Sequence record: NC_100327.1
Origin: a phage
Direction: 5' to 3' (one strand)
Length of the DNA: 64,000 nucleotides
A program made the position numbers and the translations under genes. This document shows positions 3,461 to 27,090 of the stretch, piece after piece; positions within the stretch are counted from its first letter, which is position 1; each line of letters begins with the position of its first letter. The notes beneath the pieces were generated by a model, which was given only the letters and a program-made list of their open reading frames with translations, searched no databases and had not been told where the DNA came from.

Positions 3461-3919
3461 ACGGAAAATTCACTACCTGGCGGAATCATCTTTTTAATCT
3501 TGTTTGCTGCTGCTACCAGATCCACGGCTTGTACTGTAATAATATAACCAATTGTCGAGGCTGTTGCGTTGAAAGTTTTCATTAAATTACCCTCATTAAT
3601 GGCGGGAAGTATTCCCGCGCTATGTAGTACACTTTACCAGATTGTTGACTGTTGTCAAACTATTTTAACGATAATCATCATATGCTTTATTGACCTGGCG
3701 AATATAACATTCAAAAGCTAGATCAATAGATTTATATTCACGGATATATTCACCATAGGAAACCACATACATTTCTATAGCTTCCTCATATGCGAGGAGA
3801 ATAGAATCTAAGCCTACGATCTCAGTCTTTGCAATAATAGCCATGATTTTTATCCTCTTTGTGGTTGGTGGGGCTTGTTGCCCCCTTTGATTTATATTCT
3901 ACAGTCTTATAAGGTCATG

Positions 3920-4707: not shown

Positions 4708-5058
4708 TTATTTTGCATTCTTTCCTATATTGCCGCTACGGTACCAGCGTTTACGGTGAAAATGGTAATAATCACCATCGGCATTAAACATCAGATGATT
4801 TTCAATAACCAGCTTACGAAGGTGGGCCGGATCTTGTTCCATTCTTGCCAGATTCTGGCGGCTGTTACGTAAGCGGATAAATTCTATATTCAGGCCGTTG
4901 ATTGCAGCATGGATGTCAAAGTAACCACCTTTGAGACGTTCACGCATGGCGTTAAGCTCAACACAATATACAGATTTCTCACAAATCAAGGTATTAGCCA
5001 GGGCGCGGACCTGGGCAAGGGGGTTAAGCTCATTAAGGTAATATAGTTTTACTTTCAT
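4708..5058 (-). CDS. hypothetical protein (116 aa)
   Basis: ORF-track ORF; probably co-transcribed with 5076-5396. Confidence 0.5.
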   Translation of the reverse strand: MKVKLYYLNELNPLAQVRALANTLICEKSVYCVELNAMRERLKGGYFDIHAAINGLNIEFIRLRNSRQNLARMEQDPAHLRKLVIENHLMFNADGDYYHFHRKRWYRSGNIGKNAK

Positions 5059-5075
5059 AAAATCACCTGCTGAAA

Positions 5076-5396
5076 TTAGTTTGAGAAAACATCGTTCACA
5101 ATAGCGATCACAATGCCGCCCACCTTGTCACGGTCAACAATGCACAAATCACCATAGATCATGTGGTAGTCTGGATGATCTTTGACGGAATAGTCGATAA
5201 GTGTTTTCTTGTCATCCAGCTTACTAACTTCCATTCTCATAACGATATGAGAATCATCAAAGGCATTATTCCGAAAAGTCATAACCTGACCGCCAGGGCA
5301 CCCGGTGATTTCCACCTCCACGCCGTCTACGATCTGACCATCAAAGAAATAAAGATTATTAGCCTGGATAAACATGATCATTACTCCTTTTTGCAC
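5076..5396 (-). CDS. hypothetical protein; likely start is the ATG at 5375 (MFIQANN...)
   Basis: RBS AAGGAG lies 8 nt before the ATG at 5375; the track start is an upstream GTG. Confidence 0.5.
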   Translation of the reverse strand: MQKGVMIMFIQANNLYFFDGQIVDGVEVEITGCPGGQVMTFRNNAFDDSHIVMRMEVSKLDDKKTLIDYSVKDHPDYHMIYGDLCIVDRDKVGGIVIAIVNDVFSN

Positions 5397-5417
5397 TGAT
5401 TATTTTAACAGGGTTTA

Positions 5418-5447
5418 AATTTACTTTATTGATGGCCCTGGAGTCAA
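5418..5447 (-). promoter_or_regulatory. sigma70-type promoter (TTGACT ... TAAATT) inside a palindromic element
   Basis: -35 sits in the palindrome gatggccctggagtcaaggccatc; part of a repeated 45-bp element also at 9155-9200 and 9776-9820. Confidence 0.45.
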
Positions 5448-5466
5448 GGCCATCTAAAAATAAATT

Positions 5467-5667
5467 TTACAGGCCTACAATCTCTTTAATTCGTTTTACT
5501 GCTGCCTCAGCGCCTTGAGGGTAAAAATTATGGTAACCAATCACGCGAGTGATACTAATCGCCGTTTGATGATCTTCATAATCACCTTTAAAGATTTCTT
5601 GACCGTCAATCAGCACGGCAATTTTTTCTTCTTTTTTGAAGTTAATAACGCGGATATTGTTGCTCAT
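5467..5667 (-). CDS. hypothetical protein (66 aa)
   Basis: ORF-track ORF; RBS AAAGGAG; 5' hairpin ggggagacactcccc; promoter at 5727-5755. Confidence 0.45.
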   Translation of the reverse strand: MSNNIRVINFKKEEKIAVLIDGQEIFKGDYEDHQTAISITRVIGYHNFYPQGAEAAVKRIKEIVGL

Positions 5668-5726
5668 TTTGTTTCTCCTTTTGGAACTTTGTCTATGCGG
5701 TGGGGAGTGTCTCCCCGTTGATTGTT

Positions 5727-5755
5727 ATTATCCACATTCCGGGACCGGATTGCAA
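5727..5755 (-). promoter_or_regulatory. sigma70-type promoter (TTGCAA, 17 bp, GATAAT)
   Basis: Read on the minus strand; followed by a 5' hairpin and RBS of 5467-5667. Confidence 0.45.
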
Positions 5756-5954
5756 CACCCCGGAAGAATTTTTTTTTTTTTTAAAGATAGGCCCCCATGA
5801 TCGGGGGGCCGTTCTTAGTTACTTACAGCGATAAAGTACATCCCTACCCCTAACAATATTTCAAGGGCGATGATCTCAAGCCATACCATAACACGGCGCG
5901 CCTTATCGGTGCGGGGCTTATCCTTGGGTGTCATCGTCTCCCCCTTTCCCCCTG

Positions 5955-6194
5955 TTAGTAGTGACGTGGTTTACAATGGCCCCCAGGAGTACCATCACTA
6001 CGCACACCACAAGAAAAATTATCTCTGTCGTTGTTCGATCCATTGTTATAAAATTCCTCAAGATCAGGCTTGAAAATAAAGCGTTCGTTATTGAATCCAT
6101 CACGCCAGGCGGCTGGCTTCAAATCTTCACTAAAGGGATTAATTAACGTGGCATTATTTAAACGGTTGGCCCACATATTTTCTATTCCTCTCAA
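5955..6194 (-). CDS. hypothetical protein (79 aa)
   Basis: ORF-track ORF; same-strand tiling. Confidence 0.4.
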   Translation of the reverse strand: MRGIENMWANRLNNATLINPFSEDLKPAAWRDGFNNERFIFKPDLEEFYNNGSNNDRDNFSCGVRSDGTPGGHCKPRHY

Positions 6195-6525
6195 ATAGGC
6201 GATCCGCCTCAGTTAAACATATCTCATGGGCTTGATCTCTGGTTTTAGCCTCATCGAAAACTTGTTGTGCCAGGCTGCAGCGTAGGGAGACTGGAAGATC
6301 ACTATAATAGGCGTTGACAAACGTTTGAGCGTCGTACAGGTCTGAAAATACTTTACCCTTTCTATTATTCCCCTTGTCAACAATTGCAAGGATAACAAGT
6401 ACAATAGTTGCAACCACCCCCAGGAAAATAGATATAATAAACCATAAAAAGGCGGATCTACCCATCTTGCCAGCGATCCAGGCGTTGAACAAGGCAACTA
6501 CTACAGCCAAAATAATAAATTCCAT
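6154..6525 (-). CDS. membrane protein with two N-terminal transmembrane helices; start ATG at 6525 (MEFIILAVVV...)
   Basis: RBS AAAGAGG before the ATG at 6525; hydrophobic stretches EFIILAVVVALFNAWIA and FLWFIISIFLGVVATIVLVILAIV. Confidence 0.5.
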   Translation of the reverse strand: MEFIILAVVVALFNAWIAGKMGRSAFLWFIISIFLGVVATIVLVILAIVDKGNNRKGKVFSDLYDAQTFVNAYYSDLPVSLRCSLAQQVFDEAKTRDQAHEICLTEADRLFERNRKYVGQPFK

Positions 6526-6589
6526 TCTATGTACCTCTTTTGCAGTTCTGTTTAACAATAAGGCGGCAAATATGCCGCCTGTTACCTGA

Positions 6590-6970
6590 TTAAAAATTAT
6601 CGCCGTAAATCTTTCCGCTTTCTGCCCACACCACCACGCGGGGCATGTTATCCCATACGTCTTGTTTTAGATTGAGCGCGTGCAATTCTTCGGTGGTGCC
6701 CATACCGGGCACGGGCTGATTGTATACTGCAAAACGACCACCCGCATAGTCATAGGCCAGGGTTAAATCACACTGGATCATCTTTTTGATCATGGCGTTG
6801 AGCATAGCGTTAGCCGCATACTGGTCACGTTTTAGGGGCAACTCTTTGATTAGTTTGCGATAGTTTTCAATGTGATCGCACACTGTTTCACGTGGAAGAT
6901 CTTTCATATCTTCACGGAATGTAACCAGGTTAAACATAACGGTGTCAATAGCCTTGGTAGTGTTTTTCAT
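6590..6970 (-). CDS. hypothetical protein (126 aa)
   Basis: ORF-track ORF; promoter at 7024-7051 and 5' hairpin at 6995-7014. Confidence 0.5.
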   Translation of the reverse strand: MKNTTKAIDTVMFNLVTFREDMKDLPRETVCDHIENYRKLIKELPLKRDQYAANAMLNAMIKKMIQCDLTLAYDYAGGRFAVYNQPVPGMGTTEELHALNLKQDVWDNMPRVVVWAESGKIYGDNF

Positions 6971-7023
6971 AATGTTTTCCTCTTTGTTTTGTGTGGGGCA
7001 AACGTCTTGCCCCCTTGAGTTTT

Positions 7024-7051
7024 AATATAGCAGGTTTTTAGGTTATTGCAA
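7024..7051 (-). promoter_or_regulatory. sigma70-type promoter (TTGCAA, 16 bp, TATATT)
   Basis: Read on the minus strand; transcript would start just before the hairpin ggggcaaacgtcttgcccc. Confidence 0.4.
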
Positions 7052-7059
7052 CACTTTAT

Positions 7060-7683
7060 TTATGAAAAAGTCATCTCGCCATATTCATCCACATCAAACC
7101 GCCAATCATTGGCCTCAATAAGGCCGATCAGGTTTTCGGTAGTAAACTGTTCAAGATAGGCCTCCTCCAGGTCTACGTAAACCTTGCGGGATAGCTCCCG
7201 TACCGTCTCGGTGATCAGCTCTTCCAGGTCTTCCACTTTGTTTTCTTGTTTGGCGGTCAGATCTAGCCAGGCGGTATCAATGTATCCGCTTACAGTGTTT
7301 TCGTGACTATAGCGGCTATATGGATCACGCTCAACACTGGCTGATAACTCGCCATCGTGCATTGTGCCGAACAAGTGACGAATTGATCGGAACTTGGTCA
7401 GGGCCCTTACTTTACGCAAAAATTTTTCTAAATCCACGTTTTCAGCACTGATTGACGCGCCGTCACCCTGGCACCAAAAGCCTGACCAATGTACTTCGGT
7501 ATCTTCAAGGCCATACTCTGGAAAAACATATTCTTTATAGTATTCAATTACACTTTCTGCAAAAAAGTTATCCCCGCTGTGTTCTTCTCTTTCGCGGACC
7601 ATTTCAACGGCTTTTTCTTTTTGTTCGTCGGTCAGCACGTCGAAAGATAAATTGTAACCTGCGGTAATGTTAACGGTGGTCAT
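7060..7683 (-). CDS. hypothetical protein (207 aa)
   Basis: ORF-track ORF; RBS AGGAGAAAATATC before the ATG; promoter and 5' hairpin upstream. Confidence 0.55.
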   Translation of the reverse strand: MTTVNITAGYNLSFDVLTDEQKEKAVEMVREREEHSGDNFFAESVIEYYKEYVFPEYGLEDTEVHWSGFWCQGDGASISAENVDLEKFLRKVRALTKFRSIRHLFGTMHDGELSASVERDPYSRYSHENTVSGYIDTAWLDLTAKQENKVEDLEELITETVRELSRKVYVDLEEAYLEQFTTENLIGLIEANDWRFDVDEYGEMTFS

Positions 7684-7739
7684 GATATTTTCTCCTATTT
7701 TCTTTGTTAGTGGCGGGAAGTTTTCCCGCCTGTGTGTTT

Positions 7740-7767
7740 AAGTATACTTATTGAGGCTTACTTGTCA
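7740..7767 (-). promoter_or_regulatory. sigma70-type promoter (TTGACA, 16 bp, TATACT)
   Basis: Read on the minus strand; followed by 5' hairpin ggcgggaaaacttcccgcc (7712-7730) and RBS. Confidence 0.5.
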
Positions 7768-8018
7768 ACACTATTTTTTAAATTATTGTGGCGTAAAATG
7801 TTTAGAATCTCTTCAACGTCATCAACACGGCGGCAATTTTTAAACGCTACCAATTGCCCCCGGATCTTAATCACTGGGCGGCCTTGCCAGTGCCCCTGGA
7901 GAAAGCGCGCTTTAACTTTATCGGTGGAACTATCACGCCACCAAACGGCCTTATTATTGCAGTAGTAAAAATTATTCAGGACAACATCGACTTTATCAAA
8001 ATTTTTTAATTTACGCAT
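7758..8018 (-). CDS. hypothetical protein (86 aa)
   Basis: ORF-track ORF; RBS AAAGGGG; promoter at 8054-8082. Confidence 0.5.
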   Translation of the reverse strand: MRKLKNFDKVDVVLNNFYYCNNKAVWWRDSSTDKVKARFLQGHWQGRPVIKIRGQLVAFKNCRRVDDVEEILNILRHNNLKNSVDK

Positions 8019-8053
8019 GGCGTTTACCCCTTTCTTCTTGCTTTGATGTGGTT

Positions 8054-8082
8054 AGTATATCCAGGCGATTCCAAGGTGTCAA
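8054..8082 (-). promoter_or_regulatory. sigma70-type promoter (TTGACA, 17 bp, TATACT)
   Basis: Both hexamers read on the minus strand upstream of 7758-8018. Confidence 0.5.
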
Positions 8083-8252
8083 GCTTTAAATAAAAGATAT
8101 TTTTAACACCATAAAACGGTCCTGGGTGATGTTTTCAGGCTAAGAAAGGGGATTGCATAGGTAGGGGCTTTTGTGGCGTTTGTGGTGCCAACCAGGGGCG
8201 CTATTCGTAGGATAGAAATAAAAAGCCCCGCACAATGGCGGGGCGTTGGTTG

Positions 8253-8474
8253 TTATTTGCCTTTGTGGCGGTATCGTTCCGCCTGTCGTTCACGTTCCAA
8301 AAGCAGGCCCGGTAATTTGCGATCATAGTGATTCCTCCAGATCTTCCCGAACCTTTTCGGTTTATTCAGTTTATTGTTACGCTGGCGGCGTTCCGGCAGC
8401 TCTTCGGAATCGTGGGGGCGCTTTACAATTTTTTCGAAATTAATTTTCATAAATTTCCCCTTTACTAATTTCAA
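8253..8474 (-). CDS. hypothetical basic protein (73 aa)
   Basis: ORF-track ORF; Lys/Arg-rich. Confidence 0.4.
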   Translation of the reverse strand: MKLVKGKFMKINFEKIVKRPHDSEELPERRQRNNKLNKPKRFGKIWRNHYDRKLPGLLLERERQAERYRHKGK

Positions 8475-8793
8475 TATTTGCCTGAATCGCCCGGATACGA
8501 CGTTTTATGACCTCCTGATCCTTGCAATCATATCCCCAAAAGTCTACGATCTTTGCGCCTCCGGCCTTTAGGCGGTATAGTGTTTCCTGCATCTTGTAAG
8601 CTGGGATCGGTCGCGGTGTTACCTGGTCGCCTCTCTCATCTTTGTACTTGATTATGTAGTCTTCGTTGTCGTTGAATACCCAAAATGGGTATTCTGTGAG
8701 CGCGTTGCTATCTTTTTCGTTTTTAGATTGGATCTTGTTTACAATTAAAGCCGTAGCAATAGCGCCAATAATAAAACTAGCCCCGCTGATCAT
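8440..8793 (-). CDS. membrane-anchored protein; start ATG at 8793 (MISGASFIIGAIATALIV...)
   Basis: RBS AAAGGAGAAAG before the ATG at 8793; N-terminal transmembrane helix. Confidence 0.5.
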   Translation of the reverse strand: MISGASFIIGAIATALIVNKIQSKNEKDSNALTEYPFWVFNDNEDYIIKYKDERGDQVTPRPIPAYKMQETLYRLKAGGAKIVDFWGYDCKDQEVIKRRIRAIQANIEISKGEIYEN

Positions 8794-8867
8794 GTACTTT
8801 CTCCTTTCATGGTGTTGATAAATTATCTTTATAGATGGCCCTGCAGCCAGGACCACCGAAAAAATAA

Positions 8868-9113
8868 CTATTTCACAATGCCTACAAAACAGATCCCGCC
8901 TTCACCTATATAAGCAATATCGGTCACTTTATAACTTGTCAAGATCTGCTTATTTAGTTCATTAATAAAATCGGTCATTGCGTTGGTGTAGTTGTCTTCC
9001 GTGTCTAAGGCATAATCCCAGGTGTACACCTTTTTACGTCCGAAGCCTTTTACCATGATACGGGCGCTTTTGGTGTTGGTAGGGGCATAATATTTGGTGA
9101 TTAGTGCTGCCAT
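8868..9113 (-). CDS. hypothetical protein (81 aa)
   Basis: ORF-track ORF; RBS TAGGAG; promoter at 9155-9184. Confidence 0.45.
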   Translation of the reverse strand: MAALITKYYAPTNTKSARIMVKGFGRKKVYTWDYALDTEDNYTNAMTDFINELNKQILTSYKVTDIAYIGEGGICFVGIVK

Positions 9114-9154
9114 GGTTTTAACTCCTATGCATTAGTTCAGTGTTAACAGTATAA

Positions 9155-9184
9155 AGTTTACTTTATTGATGGCCCTGGTGTCAA
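9155..9184 (-). promoter_or_regulatory. sigma70-type promoter (TTGACA ... TAAACT) inside palindrome gatggccctggtgtcaaggccatc
   Basis: Second copy of the 45-bp palindromic promoter element. Confidence 0.45.
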
Positions 9185-9202
9185 GGCCATCTAAAAATAA
9201 GC

Positions 9203-9544
9203 TTACTCGTTTTCTTCCAGCTCCGCAAGCTCTTCTTTTGCTTCTTCTAACTCTGTCTGTAATTCCTGGTATTCTTCATCGTCCTCAATATCCAGGCTGT
9301 CGATGTAGTCGCTAAATCCGCAGCGGTAAGCGATAGGATCTAGCTCCTTGAGGATACGCGACGGAAGAAAAGAAATGTTTCCGATCATAATTTCGCCGTA
9401 GATCTCGTCTAACCATTCATCATAGTTTTCGTCGTACTTGTCCTCGTCGATTTCAAAGTTATCGATCTTATTCTCAAGGTCTGCGATCTGTTTTTTCAGT
9501 TCAGCGATCTGCATAGCTTTTTCTGAGGCGGTCATAGTAGTCAT
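9203..9544 (-). CDS. highly acidic coiled-coil protein (113 aa)
   Basis: ORF-track ORF; very Asp/Glu-rich; RBS AAAAGGAGAAAAAC; promoter at 9596-9623. Confidence 0.5.
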   Translation of the reverse strand: MTTMTASEKAMQIAELKKQIADLENKIDNFEIDEDKYDENYDEWLDEIYGEIMIGNISFLPSRILKELDPIAYRCGFSDYIDSLDIEDDEEYQELQTELEEAKEELAELEENE

Positions 9545-9595
9545 GGTGTTTTTCTCCTTTTGTGTGTTCTGGGAAGTTTTCCCGTTTATGTGCTT

Positions 9596-9623
9596 ATTAT
9601 ATCGATTTAAGTTAGCTTGTCAA
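9596..9623 (-). promoter_or_regulatory. sigma70-type promoter (TTGACA, 16 bp, TATAAT)
   Basis: Consensus hexamers on the minus strand; 5' hairpin then RBS of 9203-9544. Confidence 0.55.
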
Positions 9624-9626
9624 TTA

Positions 9627-9743
9627 AAAGTTTAAGAAAAATTTTGCGACACCGTTGGCGCTACCCATCAACATTTGCGCCAGGATGTACCCAATGATGC
9701 AAACGATGATGGTTACCTTTGTGTGCTGGCGTGTAGTGCTCAT
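9627..9743 (-). CDS. small hydrophobic membrane peptide (39 aa)
   Basis: Hand translation MSTTRQHTKVTIIVCIIGYILAQMLMGSANGVAKFFLNF; RBS GGAGG; own promoter at 9776-9805; not in ORF track. Confidence 0.35.
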
Positions 9744-9775
9744 CTTTAAGCCTCCTTTTCCGCTCAACTGTGGTT

Positions 9776-9805
9776 AGTTTACTTTATTGATGGCCCTGGT
9801 GTCAA
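9776..9805 (-). promoter_or_regulatory. sigma70-type promoter (TTGACA ... TAAACT) inside palindrome gatggccctggtgtcaaggccatc
   Basis: Third copy of the 45-bp palindromic promoter element. Confidence 0.45.
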
Positions 9806-9823
9806 GGCCATCTAAAAATAAAC

Positions 9824-10219
9824 TCAATAAGTTTTTAGTACTTTCCCGTCCAATCTGTCAAGCTGGATCTCGATAGCTGCAGAAAACCTATTGTAAACCA
9901 CATCGCCCAGGGAGTCCAGCCAATCTATGACGTTATATACCTGCTCTTTATTCTTGCAAGTCCGGATCCGTTTCATTACGTAAGACGGATCAATATTAGC
10001 GCTCTCGTTGTTGTGGTCCTGCGCCTGGCCTGCTGCGCTAGTTATAGATTTTACAACCACCTGAAAGGGCTTTAAGGTGCCTTTTGCGTTCATCTCACGC
10101 GCTTTTGCGGCGCGGTTGTTATATGTTACACAACGGCGGCAAATGTTGACCAAATGCATATCAATAATTTTTTCATCGTTTGCCAGTTCGTTCATGATGC
10201 GGCGTACGTTCTTATTCAT
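9824..10219 (-). CDS. hypothetical protein (131 aa)
   Basis: ORF-track ORF; promoter at 10268-10297 and 5' hairpin gcgggaaacattcccgcc. Confidence 0.5.
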   Translation of the reverse strand: MNKNVRRIMNELANDEKIIDMHLVNICRRCVTYNNRAAKAREMNAKGTLKPFQVVVKSITSAAGQAQDHNNESANIDPSYVMKRIRTCKNKEQVYNVIDWLDSLGDVVYNRFSAAIEIQLDRLDGKVLKTY

Positions 10220-10267
10220 GATCTTTTTCCTTTGTGCTGGCGGGAAACATTCCCGCCTTTTGTGTCT

Positions 10268-10297
10268 AGTTTACTTAAATTTTGCAGCGTGTCAATG
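10268..10297 (-). promoter_or_regulatory. sigma70-type promoter (TTGACA ... TAAACT)
   Basis: Read on the minus strand upstream of 9824-10219. Confidence 0.45.
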
Positions 10298-10301
10298 ATT
10301 T

Positions 10302-10700
10302 TTATTCGTGGGCGCATGTTACAATGTGTTTTTTATAGCCCAGGTGGTCAGCAAGTGCCGACAAAAACTTTTCTTCGTAGATCCAGCCGTCGGCAGTGAT
10401 CCCCATAGCATTTAATGCGCTCTCAAGTGCTGCGTTAGCTTTATCGTAACCGTGACCGCTCGCCTTGCCGCCAGTATAACCGTACTTATTGTTCTTGTTG
10501 TCGTGAATCCAAAACACGCAGTAGTGAGTGTTCCCGCTGGCGGCGGCATAATACCGGATCTCAGCTACTTCGTGCAAATTATTGTCATCGTCCAGGCCCA
10601 CCAGATTATAAGCCTTGTAAAATCCACGATCACGGCGGCAGTTCTTGACATCAGAAAAAGAAAAGTCCGCATTATCAAAATTAAAGGTAGTGGTTTTCAT
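10302..10700 (-). CDS. hypothetical protein (132 aa)
   Basis: ORF-track ORF; RBS AAGAGGATAAAATC; promoter at 10733-10761. Confidence 0.5.
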   Translation of the reverse strand: MKTTTFNFDNADFSFSDVKNCRRDRGFYKAYNLVGLDDDNNLHEVAEIRYYAAASGNTHYCVFWIHDNKNNKYGYTGGKASGHGYDKANAALESALNAMGITADGWIYEEKFLSALADHLGYKKHIVTCAHE

Positions 10701-11568: not shown

Positions 11569-11707
11569 TGCAAACGAGAATGATTATCATTCAAGATTCT
11601 AAATGAGAACTCCTCGCATTTAATAAATTTAATTAGCACGCTAATTACCCTCCGTAACAATTTACTATAAAATAGTATCCACTAAAATATTCCCATATAG
11701 AAATTTT

Positions 11708-11884
11708 AAAAATCCATTTCTGAAAACGAAAAATCGATTTCGTCCCCAAAAATTTCAGGTTGAGAGCCGGAACGATTTCCAGAAAATCCGATTCAGAAAA
11801 CGAAAAACAGATCGAGTACTGAGAAATTTATCGAGAAAAATTTTCAGAAAATCCAAGCCCTGAAATGAAAAGTAGATCGAGTAC
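11708..11884. repeat. Iteron-like array of three about 40-bp direct repeats (core GAAAATCC..GAAAACGAAAAA..GATCGAGTAC)
   Basis: Units at about 11708-11742, 11781-11819 and 11845-11884; related partial copies near 12059-12100 and 12140-12160. Confidence 0.5.
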
Positions 11885-12196
11885 CTGGAAAGCTGCACCG
11901 CAACTTCAAGATAGCGGTTAGATTGTTACCATAGAAGGTCAAGGGTAAGTGGAGGAAGTTCTAGTAGAGGGAGGTTAGCATGTGTGGGAAATCTATAATG
12001 GTGGCCTGGAATATGGTGCAAACGATAGAATGAGTTATTCAGCTTGTCGCGCCTACTCTGAAAAATCCATTTTAGTTTTCGATCCATTTTCTGATTTTCT
12101 AAGAATTTTAAAATATCCAGCCCGGTGAAATATCAAAAGGAGGAAATCCATTTTAGAAATCCCCCTTATACTTGATATGCCAGGAATTTTCAAGTA

Positions 12197-15689: not shown

Positions 15690-15725
15690 TTATACAAAAA
15701 TGCCCCACCCTTTCGGGCAGGGGCT
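15690..15725 (-). terminator. Rho-independent terminator after the SSB-like gene
   Basis: GC-rich hairpin (plus-strand tgccccaccctttcgggcagggg) followed by a U-run on the minus strand; near-identical copy at 26570-26602. Confidence 0.5.
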
Positions 15726-15739
15726 ATGTTAACTAATTG

Positions 15740-25790: not shown

Positions 25791-26585
25791 TTACTTCCCA
25801 TTAATTCTGCTCCTTACTACAGGCTCGTTTGCTAAGAATACAGCTTTTGCCCAGCCACGTGGTGTGAGGCTTCGGATCATCTTCGTTCTTGCACTCTTCC
25901 CACCCAGCTTGGCGTGTTGCATGGAATACCCGCTAACCGCGTCAACTATTTGCGGGACAGGTTTTGTGGCCGGGATTATAAATCCATTACCTATCCAGCC
26001 GCAAGTTATTTTTGGATAGGCATCACGTGGAGCTATAAATTCAGGAAACCAGGGGTTTACATCATCCTCCGGTAAATACCCGCCATAGTCAGAAGGATGA
26101 AAACGGTAATCAGGTTTGCGCCACAGTGTGGACATAACACCAACAGGATTCTCTACATGCCACGGGCAATCGTAAATCTCTCCCAGCTCTTCCGCAACCC
26201 GAGCATCCTTTACAGCATTAATTTGGATCAAAGGATCCTTAGCCAGCTTTTTCTTAAAATGTGCAGCACCTGATACCGCTAAATGCGTGCACGGAGGAAA
26301 TGCAAGAATAAAGTCTGGAGCTGGATACATGCAAAAAGTTTCCTGAGGGAACCATGGGTCAATCCAATAATCCACATAGTGAATGTTAGGATGATCGGTT
26401 ATCACCTCTGCATAACTGCCGTGGTCAGCACCTTCTGCATTAAAGCACAGGCACAGGTACCCAGCTTTTGCCCAGTCAATAACTGCACCACCAGACCCGT
26501 CAAATAGACTCCACACAACACCTTTGTGGTAGTGTTCTTTGTAGATGAATTTCAATTTGCTGTCTCCTAATGCAAAAAGCCCCAC
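25791..26585 (-). CDS. DNA cytosine-C5 methyltransferase-like protein (short, non-canonical; start uncertain)
   Basis: Motif I LFDGSGG, motif IV FPPCT (PCQ-like), motif VI HVENPVG; only about 264 aa; an RBS AGGAGA plus TTG at about 26557 is an alternative start. Confidence 0.55.
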   Translation of the reverse strand: MGLFALGDSKLKFIYKEHYHKGVVWSLFDGSGGAVIDWAKAGYLCLCFNAEGADHGSYAEVITDHPNIHYVDYWIDPWFPQETFCMYPAPDFILAFPPCTHLAVSGAAHFKKKLAKDPLIQINAVKDARVAEELGEIYDCPWHVENPVGVMSTLWRKPDYRFHPSDYGGYLPEDDVNPWFPEFIAPRDAYPKITCGWIGNGFIIPATKPVPQIVDAVSGYSMQHAKLGGKSARTKMIRSLTPRGWAKAVFLANEPVVRSRINGK

Positions 26586-27090
26586 CCTTTCGGGCAGGGC
26601 CTAGTGTTAAACCCGGATACCTATTGTTATACTCGGTGGATACCAATGTCAAATCTAAATTTAAAATTTCTTGCATCTCATAATATGCGTCCAGGGTTAG
26701 ATACATTTCCCCATCCTTTTCTACATACTTGTCCAAGTGCTTGAGGCATTTCGGATAACTATCAAGTGCAGCTTTCAGGCACTCAAACTCTGTGCTGTTG
26801 ATGAATCCTTCCATCTTGGCTACCCGTTCTGGGGTAATGATAGCACTGTAGTGAGATTTAGCTTCCTGAATGCAATGGGTCCAAGCATCAACCTTCTCTT
26901 CGAAAAGTCCAAAGAACTTCTTTTTGGTGAGCTTCAGATTCTTTAAGTGCTTAAGCACTCGGTTGCCGATTACAGCCACATCACGAAACTTAAGAATCAC
27001 TTTGTCGATATCCTCGCGACCTATTTTCACAAAACAGGCCTTACACATTTCAGGGGAGGAATAACCAACTTTCCACATAAAATCTGACAT
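26500..27090 (-). CDS. hypothetical protein (196 aa; 3' end overlaps the terminator hairpin)
   Basis: ORF-track ORF; the C-terminal tail looks low-quality, so the true stop may differ. Confidence 0.45.
   Translation of the reverse strand: MSDFMWKVGYSSPEMCKACFVKIGREDIDKVILKFRDVAVIGNRVLKHLKNLKLTKKKFFGLFEEKVDAWTHCIQEAKSHYSAIITPERVAKMEGFINSTEFECLKAALDSYPKCLKHLDKYVEKDGEMYLTLDAYYEMQEILNLDLTLVSTEYNNRYPGLTLGPARKGGAFCIRRQQIEIHLQRTLPQRCCVESI
26570..26602 (-). terminator. Terminator-like hairpin, near-identical copy of 15690-15725
   Basis: Plus-strand gccccaccctttcgggcaggg; U-run then RBS AGGAGA on the minus strand. Confidence 0.4.

What the first reader, a model, noticed from the sequence alone, without database searches (positions are those of the whole stretch)
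5418..9820. 45-bp palindromic promoter element present in three copies
tttactttattgatggccctgg(t/a)gtcaaggccatctaaaaataa occurs at about 5421-5460, 9161-9200 and 9779-9820, with a degenerate copy at about 8811-8850. Its palindrome GATGGCC-N10-GGCCATC is centred on the -35 hexamer of the minus-strand promoter. A dyad overlapping a -35 is the classic layout for a repressor or activator site, suggesting co-regulation of a subset of early genes.
Basis: partly seen in the sequence, partly recalled or inferred. Interest (0 to 1): 0.5.

Follow-up and report, generated by a model that had tools for sequence, protein, structure and literature searches.

The report
Repeated hairpin-plus-promoter cassette in rV5-like phage
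A 45-50 base sequence repeated between small early genes of an rV5-like E. coli phage encodes a conserved mRNA hairpin overlapping a probable host-type promoter, and its copies have served as crossover points for gaining, losing and swapping genes, much like the "PeSL" cassettes of T4-like phages.

Summary
Three near-identical 44-nt copies lie at 5420-5463, 9157-9200 and 9778-9821. A diverged fourth copy lies at 8821-8869, about 10 nt from the coordinates given. None is expected by chance.

The window is the early region of a Vequintavirus (rV5-like; 99.8% identical to phage CarlMeissner), with genes on the minus strand. Each copy starts at or 1-2 nt into the upstream stop codon and ends 32-45 nt before the next start codon.

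The promoter reading is plausible: TTGACN-18-TAAAYT is kept in 37 of 40 copies, and it sits where an ordinary promoter sits in a related phage.

The dyad is better explained as an RNA hairpin on the mRNA strand. It has two 10-bp helices, a small internal loop and a tetraloop. 98.5% of cells pair, four pairs show compensatory changes, and G·U pairs form only on the sense strand. The fourth copy keeps the hairpin but has lost the -35.

No evidence supports a repressor or activator site.

The copies are recombination substrates. At least five genomes lack exactly the 621 bp between copies 2 and 3. A phage of another subfamily carries a cassette whose breakpoint lies inside the element.

The closest known analogue is the T4-type PeSL. 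Modest interest.

The parts
5418..5466 (-). Copy 1. The 49-nt hairpin starts directly after the TAA stop (5469-5467) of the 66-aa gene. Putative -35 TTGACT at 5447-5442 and -10 TAAATT at 5423-5418. The downstream gene starts at 5375.
8821..8869 (-). Copy 4, diverged. It keeps the same two-helix hairpin: upper stem GGUGGUCCUG/CAGGGCCAUC, loop GCUG. The -35 position reads CTGGCT (3/6). GATAAT lies at the -10 position. It overlaps the TAG stop of the 81-aa gene and precedes the 117-aa gene.
9155..9203 (-). Copy 2. The hairpin overlaps the last base of the TAA stop of the 113-aa gene. Putative -35 TTGACA at 9184-9179 and -10 TAAACT at 9160-9155. The downstream 81-aa gene starts at 9113.
9776..9824 (-). 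Copy 3. The hairpin overlaps the last base of the TGA stop of the 131-aa gene. Putative -35 TTGACA at 9805-9800 and -10 TAAACT at 9781-9776. The downstream 39-aa membrane-like gene starts at 9743.
9204..9775 (-). Gene cassette between copies 2 and 3. It holds the 113-aa acidic coiled-coil gene (9203-9544), its own consensus promoter TTGACA-16-TATAAT (9623-9596) with a 5'-UTR hairpin, and the 39-aa gene (9624-9743). Together with one element copy (621 bp) it is missing from magaca, ECP26, ECP32, phiWec189 and one IMG/VR contig.
9151..9624 (-). Segment shared at 93% identity with Justusliebigvirus KKE7M: copy 2, the 113-aa gene and its promoter. Its ends lie in promoter sequence. One end lies inside the element, between the -35 and the -10.
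5076..5375 (-). 99-aa gene downstream of copy 1, function unknown (phrog_7366).
8868..9113 (-). 81-aa gene downstream of copy 2 and upstream of copy 4, function unknown (phrog_3199).
8440..8793 (-). 117-aa gene downstream of copy 4, found only in Vequintavirus. It is followed by a T7 gp1.1-like gene (8253-8450) and the first canonical terminator (8244-8225).

Best explanation
The element is a compact intergenic regulatory cassette that carries two overlapping codes. It has also become a hotspot for gene shuffling.

(1) RNA level, with strong comparative support. Transcripts of the upstream gene read into the element and fold a roughly 50-nt hairpin. The hairpin has a 10-bp AU-rich lower helix, a 2x3-nt internal loop, a 10-bp GC-rich upper helix and a tetraloop. 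It has no U-tract after the GC stem, so it is most likely not a classical terminator. Its likely role is as a 3' protective or processing structure in a polycistronic early mRNA. Its shape (two helical turns plus an internal loop) fits the general class of E. coli RNase III sites that leave a protective 3' hairpin. This step is inferred.

(2) DNA level, inferred from consensus, conservation and positional equivalence. The same bases form a sigma-70 promoter for the next gene. The -35 TTGACN spans the top of the upper stem and the loop. The -10 TAAAYT is the 3' strand of the lower helix. The T-rich 5' strand lies where an UP-like AT-rich region would be. Copy 4 has kept function 1 and has lost a consensus -35, so its promoter is probably lost or weakened.

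(3) Genome evolution, shown by comparison. The near-identical direct repeats recombine with each other, and with similar promoter sequences in other phages. This deletes, inserts or swaps the small genes between them, as PeSL cassettes do in T4-like phages.
For: Hairpin:
- Sense-strand folds give -23.5 to -26.5 kcal/mol, z -4.5 to -6.8, and no shuffle folds as well.
- Sense-strand folds are far more stable than antisense folds; for copy 4 the values are -22.4 and -8.1 kcal/mol.
- On 23 distinct copies, 98.5% of cells pair, against 37-59% when the partners are slid. Four lower-helix pairs change on both sides (U-A to C-G; A-U to G·U to G-C; a U-A/A-U swap). Five upper-helix pairs change only through G·U.
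- RNAalifold independently predicts the same structure.
- 64 of 460 cells are G·U, so the antisense strand would pair only about 85%.

Promoter:
- Scan hits score 10/12 and 9/12.
- 37 of 40 distinct-context copies keep TTGACN-18-TAAAYT. Across the 40 the fifth base changes in only one copy (TTGATA), while the sixth base takes all four values.
- HMD-6 copy 1 has a 1-nt loop deletion plus a 1-nt insertion that restores the 18-nt spacing.
- rV5 promoter P194 uses TTGACA-16-TAAACT.
- In KKE7M the element's TAAATT lies 11 nt before a 5'-UTR hairpin and Shine-Dalgarno sequence, the same place as TAAACT of the ordinary promoter in UAB_1. Consensus promoters there have 9-12 nt at this position.
- Nearly every small gene in this region has its own promoter.

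Recombination:
- magaca (flanks 99.9% identical to the window), ECP26 and ECP32 (89-90%), phiWec189 and an IMG/VR contig lack exactly the 621 bp between copies 2 and 3. Each has one chimeric element carrying the upstream flank of copy 3 and the downstream flank of copy 2.
- In the KKE7M versus UAB_1 cassette swap, one breakpoint lies in TTGACAAGATAACTAAAATC. The other lies in AATAAAGTAAAYT, inside the element.
- Loop variants are shared between paralogous copies within a genome, for example isim copies 1 and 2 and APECc02 copies 2 and 3. This suggests gene conversion.

Conservation:
- Element columns are less variable than the flanking coding sequence: 0.09 against 0.26 for copy 2, and 0.15 against 0.54 for copy 3, where the flank figure is inflated because the set includes deletion-junction copies whose downstream flank is not orthologous.
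Against: - No transcript data exist for any Vequintavirus that I could find. Promoter activity, readthrough and RNA processing are therefore all untested.
- The promoter is sub-optimal: an 18-nt spacer and a 4/6 -10. All copies descend from one ancestor, so the TTGAC match is a single evolutionary event and could be a by-product of the hairpin sequence.
- The rV5 paper's promoter and terminator tables do not list the element.
- Stems bracketing a -35 are not enriched in the window overall: 11 of 163 promoter-like sites against 6.3% of random positions. The overlap is therefore not a general design rule of this phage.
- The RNase III assignment rests on shape alone. The proximal-box and distal-box rules were not checked.
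- The compensatory changes are mostly in copy 4 and the lower helix. Copies 1-3 are too conserved to show covariation themselves.
Confidence: 0.55

Rival explanations
1. First reader's model. The DNA dyad GATGGCC-N10-GGCCATC is an operator for a phage or host DNA-binding regulator that overlaps the -35 and co-regulates three early genes.
For: A perfect 7-bp inverted repeat flanks the -35 in three copies. It is very highly conserved across about 120 genomes. A dyad over a -35 is a classical repressor layout (established knowledge).
Against: The conserved unit is a 20-bp interrupted hairpin, not a 7-bp dyad. It tolerates G·U pairs, which are mismatches at the DNA level, and shows compensatory pair swaps. 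Copy 4 keeps the fold although its DNA half-sites differ (GGTGGTCC against GGGCCATC) and its -35 is gone. The fold is strongly strand-asymmetric, which a double-stranded protein site would not require. The half-site centres are 17 bp apart, which is unusual for dimeric helix-turn-helix operators (inference from general knowledge). The downstream genes share no known function. No regulator was identified.
Confidence: 0.1
2. RNA element only. The hairpin is an intercistronic processing or stability signal (RNase III-type site or 3' exonuclease block), and the promoter resemblance is incidental.
For: There is covariation and strand asymmetry. Copy 4 functions without a -35. All four copies sit inside operons fed by upstream promoters, with no terminator between. 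Both hexamers are parts of the helices, so their conservation could be structural. The shape is that of RNase III substrates that yield protective 3' hairpins: two helical turns and an internal loop (PMC1540722).
Against: Across 40 copies, loop bases 1-2 (A and C of TTGAC) change in only one (TTGATA), while loop bases 3-4 vary freely. In copy 4 the loop varies at three of its four positions. Spacing-restoring indels occur in HMD-6. The -10 is positionally equivalent to a bona fide promoter position in UAB_1 and KKE7M.
Confidence: 0.22
3. Intrinsic (rho-independent) terminator, as two copies are annotated in the phage Murica GenBank record.
For: The Murica record marks the equivalents of copy 1 and copy 4 as 45-nt terminators. 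The stem is stable and GC-rich. The element lies immediately after stop codons.
Against: The GC stem is followed by AAUAAAGUAAAC, not a U-tract. The U-rich arm is on the 5' side on both strands. The terminator scan does not call it, although it calls the canonical ones nearby at 8244, 6580, 5810 and 4674. EdH4's annotators and the rV5 paper do not list it. Termination there would leave the gene after copy 4 without a consensus (-35-bearing) promoter; only GATAAT at the -10 position would remain.
Confidence: 0.08
4. Selfish miniature mobile element (MITE-like or REP-like), or a cruciform that makes the promoter sensitive to supercoiling.
For: It is short, palindromic, AT-flanked and multicopy. 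One copy appears in a different phage subfamily.
Against: The same three or four loci and the same orientation are found in all genomes examined. There are no target-site duplications. It is absent from E. coli genomes and from non-Vequintavirus metagenomic contexts. The KKE7M copy arrived with a gene by homologous exchange. The antisense hairpin is weak, so a symmetric cruciform is not conserved.
Confidence: 0.03

Closest known systems
PeSL (promoter-early stem-loop) cassettes of T4-like phages (Arbiol et al. 2010, PMC2839356; Comeau et al. 2014, PMC4122927)
   Same: Both are short conserved intergenic motifs between small genes of unknown function in a plastic early region. Both combine a stem-loop with a sigma-70-like early promoter and an AT-rich segment, followed by a Shine-Dalgarno sequence and a start codon. 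Recombination between neighbouring copies removes or adds the intervening ORFs. Degraded copies that keep only part of the motif exist in both systems. Both act as linker sequences for exchange between phages.
   Different: In PeSLs the stem-loop lies just upstream of the AT-rich region and promoter, and it was shown to terminate transcription. Here the promoter lies inside the hairpin (-35 in the loop, -10 in the lower helix) and there is no U-tract. There are only 3-4 copies per genome rather than dozens. The phage family is different (Vequintavirinae, not T4-like). Promoter activity, terminator activity and mini-circles have not been tested here.
RNase III processing sites between early genes of phage T7 (for example R1.1; Pertzev and Nicholson 2006, PMC1540722)
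   Same: Both are sequence-related hairpins repeated between cistrons of an early polycistronic mRNA. Both have about two helical turns interrupted by an internal loop. That geometry limits cleavage to one strand and leaves a protective 3' hairpin on the upstream mRNA.
   Different: No sequence similarity was tested or found, and Rfam gives no hit. The proximal-box and distal-box determinants were not evaluated. The T7 sites are not known to me to contain host promoters.
Morons and promoter/terminator-bounded gene cassettes of lambdoid phages (general knowledge)
   Same: In both, a small accessory gene with its own promoter is found inserted between two genes of an otherwise collinear genome, and it is variably present among relatives.
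   Different: Morons are bounded by a promoter and a true terminator, and they are not flanked by identical repeats. Here the flanks are two copies of the same 45-50-nt element.
Operator dyads overlapping a -35 (classical repressor sites)
   Same: An inverted repeat straddles the -35 of a sigma-70-type promoter.
   Different: Conservation follows RNA pairing rules (G·U pairs, compensatory swaps, strand asymmetry) rather than a fixed DNA half-site. No binding protein is known.

Membership tests
PeSL-type promoter/stem-loop cassette | Sigma-70-like early promoter (-35, about 17 nt, -10) followed by a Shine-Dalgarno sequence and the start of the next gene | tested here: met
   TTGACN-18-TAAAYT is found in 37 of 40 copies. 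A Shine-Dalgarno sequence and ATG lie 32-45 nt downstream. This rests on sequence only; activity was not tested.
PeSL-type promoter/stem-loop cassette | Stable stem-loop located just upstream of the promoter and acting as a transcription terminator | tested here: not met
   A stem-loop is present, but it overlaps the promoter rather than preceding it. It also lacks a 3' U-tract. Terminator activity cannot be tested with these tools.
PeSL-type promoter/stem-loop cassette | Intergenic location between small ORFs of unknown function in a variable region, in several conserved copies | tested here: met
   Four copies lie between 39-131-aa ORFs of unknown function. Gene content varies among relatives.
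PeSL-type promoter/stem-loop cassette | Indels and exchanges whose junctions fall in the motif (recombination between copies) | tested here: met
   A 621-bp indel with a chimeric junction copy is found in at least 5 genomes. The KKE7M versus UAB_1 cassette swap has a breakpoint inside the element.
PeSL-type promoter/stem-loop cassette | Formation of excised mini-circles during infection | not testable with these tools
   This needs inverse PCR on infected cells.
Intrinsic (rho-independent) terminator | GC-rich hairpin immediately followed by a U-rich tract on the transcribed strand | tested here: not met
   The stem is followed by AAUAAAGUAAAC. The terminator scan does not call it on either strand.
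E. coli RNase III processing site | About two helical turns of dsRNA, often with an internal loop that restricts cleavage to one strand | tested here: met
   There are 10 + 10 bp with a 2x3-nt internal loop, supported by covariation. The criterion is taken from PMC1540722.
E. coli RNase III processing site | Permissive proximal-box and distal-box base pairs, and actual cleavage by RNase III | not tested
   The box rules were not evaluated. Cleavage needs an rnc+/rnc- comparison or an in vitro assay.
Repressor or activator operator | Fixed double-stranded DNA half-sites recognised by a dimeric protein, with a cognate regulator | tested here: inconclusive
   The half-sites are identical in copies 1-3, but in copy 4 they diverge in a way that preserves RNA pairing. 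No regulator was identified. Binding cannot be tested here.
Known RNA family (Rfam 15) | Match to a curated covariance model | tested here: not met
   No Rfam hit falls on any copy at E<=1.

The most novel reading that the evidence does not exclude
The element is a truly dual-coded module. The same 50 bases act as a host-RNA-polymerase promoter in DNA. In RNA they act as an RNase III-type processing or stabilising hairpin for the upstream cistron. The module is also a portable recombination linker that lets unrelated myovirus subfamilies (Vequintavirinae and Stephanstirmvirinae) trade early genes. That would extend PeSL-like modular shuffling beyond T4-like phages, in a new overlapped architecture.
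Probability: 0.3. Interest if true: 0.5.

Novelty: new variant of a known kind. Interest (0 to 1): 0.35.

Why it matters
rV5-like phages are widely used in E. coli O157 biocontrol and belong to reference collections, yet their early transcription has never been mapped. This element is absent from the published promoter and terminator lists. It is annotated in only one of the records examined here (Murica), and there as a terminator.

Recognising it as a promoter-in-hairpin cassette has three consequences. First, it corrects that annotation. Second, it predicts internal transcription starts and mRNA processing points in the early operons. Third, it explains a recurrent gene-presence polymorphism (the 113-aa and 39-aa genes) and a cross-subfamily gene transfer by a simple mechanism.

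It also suggests that conserved regulatory linkers drive modular gene exchange in large virulent phages generally, not only in T4-like phages. That makes accessory early genes, which are often anti-defence candidates, easier to track.

Tried and rejected
1. General design rule. I tested whether -35 hexamers in this phage are generally bracketed by stems. 11 of 163 promoter-like sites are, against 6.3% of random positions, so there is no enrichment. Only 2302-2262 and 5770-5727 resemble the element, and the latter folds no better than shuffles.
2. Rfam. Nothing matched the copies.
3. AT-rich flank pattern in IMG/VR. It returned mostly chance hits in AT-rich viruses and only two Vequintavirus contigs.
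4. Stem-anchored pattern in IMG/VR and metagenomes. It found only Vequintavirus contexts plus chance coding hits.
5. E. coli genomes. No copy was found.
6. Following the element into other genera by synteny. The 207-aa neighbour has only remote relatives (25-31% identity), in loci I did not examine for the element. The 117-aa neighbour is genus-restricted.
7. A 'repeat_region' annotated in phage isim lies inside the 113-aa gene and is unrelated to the element.
8. The deletion in rV5_ev146 that removes copy 3 is not bounded by the element.
9. Literature search for Vequintavirinae transcription-start or RNA-seq data found nothing usable.
10. Pfam and PHROG annotation of flanking genes gave unknown functions, apart from a T7 gp1.1-like gene.

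Full report
**Identity of the window.** Window 5000-10500 is 99.8% identical to Escherichia phages CarlMeissner (Bas48), nomo and nimi. It is 90-99% identical to about 120 Vequintavirus (rV5-like) genomes. All genes here are on the minus strand, and they are small ORFs of unknown function. The only exception is a T7 gp1.1-like gene at 8253-8450. This is the early region. Almost every gene has its own TTGACA-16/17-TATAAT-type promoter, and there are a few canonical terminators at 8244, 6580, 5810 and 4674.

**Observation.** The 44-nt sequence occurs without mismatch at 5420-5463, 9157-9200 and 9778-9821, with 0 expected by chance. The palindrome GATGGCC-N10-GGCCATC occurs at those three sites, and at 8834-8857 with two mismatches. 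The repeat finder groups four copies: 5418-5466, 8821-8869, 9155-9203 and 9776-9824. A covariance model built from the family finds only these four in the 64 kb. Each copy starts at or 1-2 nt into the stop codon of the upstream gene and ends 32-45 nt before the next start codon. About 120 phage records hold the element, nearly all at three places.

**The dyad is part of a larger hairpin on the mRNA strand.**
- Folded as minus-strand RNA, every copy gives the same structure: a 10-bp AU-rich lower helix, a 2x3-nt internal loop, a 10-bp upper helix (GAUGGCCUUG/CAGGGCCAUC, including one U·G pair) and a tetraloop.
- Energies are -23.5 to -26.5 kcal/mol, z -4.5 to -6.8, and no shuffle folds as well.
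- The plus-strand versions are much weaker: -15.1, -17.5 and -16.8 against -23.3, -20.7 and -25.1 kcal/mol. For copy 4 the values are -8.1 against -22.4.
- I collected copies from about 20 genomes and aligned 23 distinct sequences.
- On the stated structure, 98.5% of cells pair, against 37-59% when partners are slid by 1-3 columns. Four lower-helix pairs change on both sides: U-A to C-G, A-U to G·U to G-C, and a U-A/A-U swap. Five upper-helix pairs vary on one side only, always through G·U.
- RNAalifold predicts the identical structure without being told it.
- 64 of 460 cells are G·U, which would be A·C mismatches on the other strand.
- Copy 4 is decisive. Its -35 position reads CTGGCT, CTGGTT or CTGGTA (3/6), its loop varies freely (GCUG, GUUG, GUAG, GUAA), and its DNA half-sites are no longer a palindrome. 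The hairpin is nevertheless intact in every genome.
- Selection therefore acts on an RNA structure (or at least a sense-strand structure), not on a double-stranded protein site.

**The hairpin is probably not a terminator.** The GC stem is followed by AAUAAAGUAAAC. The U-rich arm is on the 5' side whichever strand is read, and the terminator scan does not call it. The Murica GenBank record annotates the equivalents of copies 1 and 4 as 45-nt terminators. EdH4's annotators do not, and the rV5 genome paper lists it neither as promoter nor as terminator. All four copies are intercistronic within operons fed by upstream promoters. [quoted passage not shown] I take a processing or 3'-stabilising role as the most likely RNA function, but this rests on shape only.

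**The promoter reading is plausible.**
- The scan gives TTGACA-18-TAAACT (copies 2 and 3) and TTGACT-18-TAAATT (copy 1).
- Among 40 copies with distinct contexts, 37 keep TTGACN-18-TAAAYT.
- The first five bases change in only one of the 40 (TTGATA), while the sixth takes all four values. Loop positions 1-2 (the A and C of TTGAC) are nearly fixed while positions 3-4 vary, unlike the freely varying loop of copy 4.
- In HMD-6 copy 1, a 1-nt loop deletion is accompanied by a 1-nt insertion in the internal loop, which keeps the spacing at 18.
- The rV5 paper's promoter P194 uses TTGACA-16-TAAACT.
- The best contextual evidence comes from Justusliebigvirus KKE7M. There the element is followed, 11 nt after TAAATT, by the standard 5'-UTR hairpin, Shine-Dalgarno sequence and gene. 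Its 97%-identical relative UAB_1 has at the same place an ordinary promoter, TTGCAA-16-TAAACT, with the same 11-nt distance. Consensus promoters in these phages have 9-12 nt there.
- Against: the 18-nt spacer and the 4/6 -10 make a mediocre promoter. All copies share one origin. Both hexamers are structural parts of the hairpin. No transcript mapping exists.

**The copies recombine.**
- phiWec189 and ECP32 align with the window up to copy 2 and resume at copy 3.
- magaca, ECP26 and ECP32 cover 58% of window 8870-10220 in two pieces.
- In magaca the 81-aa gene is followed directly by the 131-aa gene.
- In all of them, and in an IMG/VR contig, the single remaining element has the upstream flank of copy 3 and the downstream flank of copy 2. 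This is the product expected from homologous exchange between the direct repeats, or from the reverse insertion.
- magaca's flanks are 99.9% identical to the window, while those of ECP26 and ECP32 are 89-90% identical. Their junction copies carry lineage-specific loop variants. The event has therefore probably happened, or been transferred, more than once.
- KKE7M belongs to a different subfamily (Stephanstirmvirinae) but carries window 9151-9624 at 93% identity.
- Comparison with UAB_1 shows a cassette replacement. Its left breakpoint lies in the shared promoter stretch TTGACAAGATAACTAAAATC. Its right breakpoint lies in AATAAAGTAAAYT, between the -35 and the -10 of the element.
- Some loop variants are shared by paralogous copies within a genome but differ between genomes, which suggests gene conversion.
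- Element columns vary less than the flanking coding sequence.

**Comparison with known systems.** The closest analogue is the PeSL of T4-like phages. PeSLs are conserved stem-loop plus sigma-70 early promoter cassettes between ORFans in hyperplastic regions. Their stem-loops terminate transcription, and recombination between them deletes, inserts and swaps ORFs (PMC2839356, PMC4122927). The present element behaves the same way in genome comparisons, and it has the same ingredients. It differs in three ways. The promoter is embedded in the hairpin rather than downstream of it. There is no U-tract. The phage family is different. I therefore class it as working like a PeSL but as a new variant, not a strict member.

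**Distribution and dead ends.**
- The element is absent from 5,426 E. coli genomes.
- In IMG/VR and metagenome scans it appears only in Vequintavirus contexts.
- Stems around -35 hexamers are not enriched in the window as a whole.
- Rfam has no match.
- The neighbouring genes could not carry the element into other genera: the 117-aa gene is genus-specific, and the 207-aa gene has only remote relatives whose loci I did not examine.

**Verdict.** The best explanation is a dual-coded hairpin/promoter cassette that doubles as a recombination linker. The finding is a tidy but modestly surprising extension of a known concept.

Noticed in passing
window 3592-3629, 5698-5720, 6995-7013, 7703-7740, 9559-9596, 10239-10257 (minus strand): A second repeated hairpin family (GGCGGGAAnnnTTCCCGCC-like) sits 9-12 nt downstream of the -10 of consensus early promoters, at the very 5' end of the predicted mRNAs. 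Justusliebigvirus KKE7M and UAB_1 use the same design. The EdH4 record annotates the 10239-10257 one as a terminator. These are probably 5' stabiliser hairpins.
   Followed up: partly
window 2302-2262 (minus strand): A canonical terminator (14-bp stem plus U-tract) has TTGCAA in its loop, and its U-tract forms the spacer to a TG-TATACT -10. This is an independent example of an overlapped terminator and promoter.
   Followed up: partly
window 5770-5727 (minus strand), with an A14 run at 5770-5783: A stem (TTCCGGGGT / GTCCCGGAA) brackets the TTGCAA -35 of the promoter for the 66-aa gene, just after a run of 14 A. The RNA fold is no better than shuffles.
   Followed up: partly
window 11591-11925: This stretch has no ORF of 50 aa or more. 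It holds three degenerate 57-nt direct repeats at 11696, 11770 and 11835. The rV5 paper mentions a 'non-coding' box in its genome map. It could be a replication or regulatory region.
   Followed up: no
window 8253-8450 (minus strand): A 65-aa protein matches Pfam PF08200, the bacteriophage T7 gene 1.1 protein family (E = 1.2e-10).
   Followed up: no
L003 (rV5_ev146) versus window 9732-10232: The laboratory-evolved rV5_ev146 lacks about 500 bp, including copy 3 and the 131-aa gene. The deletion ends are not in the element. The sequence left of window 8303 is also replaced.
   Followed up: partly
L135 (HMD-6) and L137 (WM) versus window 4719-5061: The 116-aa gene at 4708-5058 is absent from these two phages. 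This is another early-region indel that is not bounded by the element.
   Followed up: no
window 15697-15726 and 26574-26603: The terminator-like hairpin GCCCCACCCTTTCGGGCAGGGGC occurs as two 93%-identical (28 of 30 nt) copies about 10.9 kb apart. It matches terminators t213 and t232 of the rV5 paper.
   Followed up: no
L153 (UAB_1), sense strand just upstream of gp242: The intergenic sequence contains TGGTAAAATA, identical to the 'late promoter-like' motif TggTAaAAtA that the rV5 paper reports upstream of late genes. Here it lies in an early-region promoter spacer.
   Followed up: no
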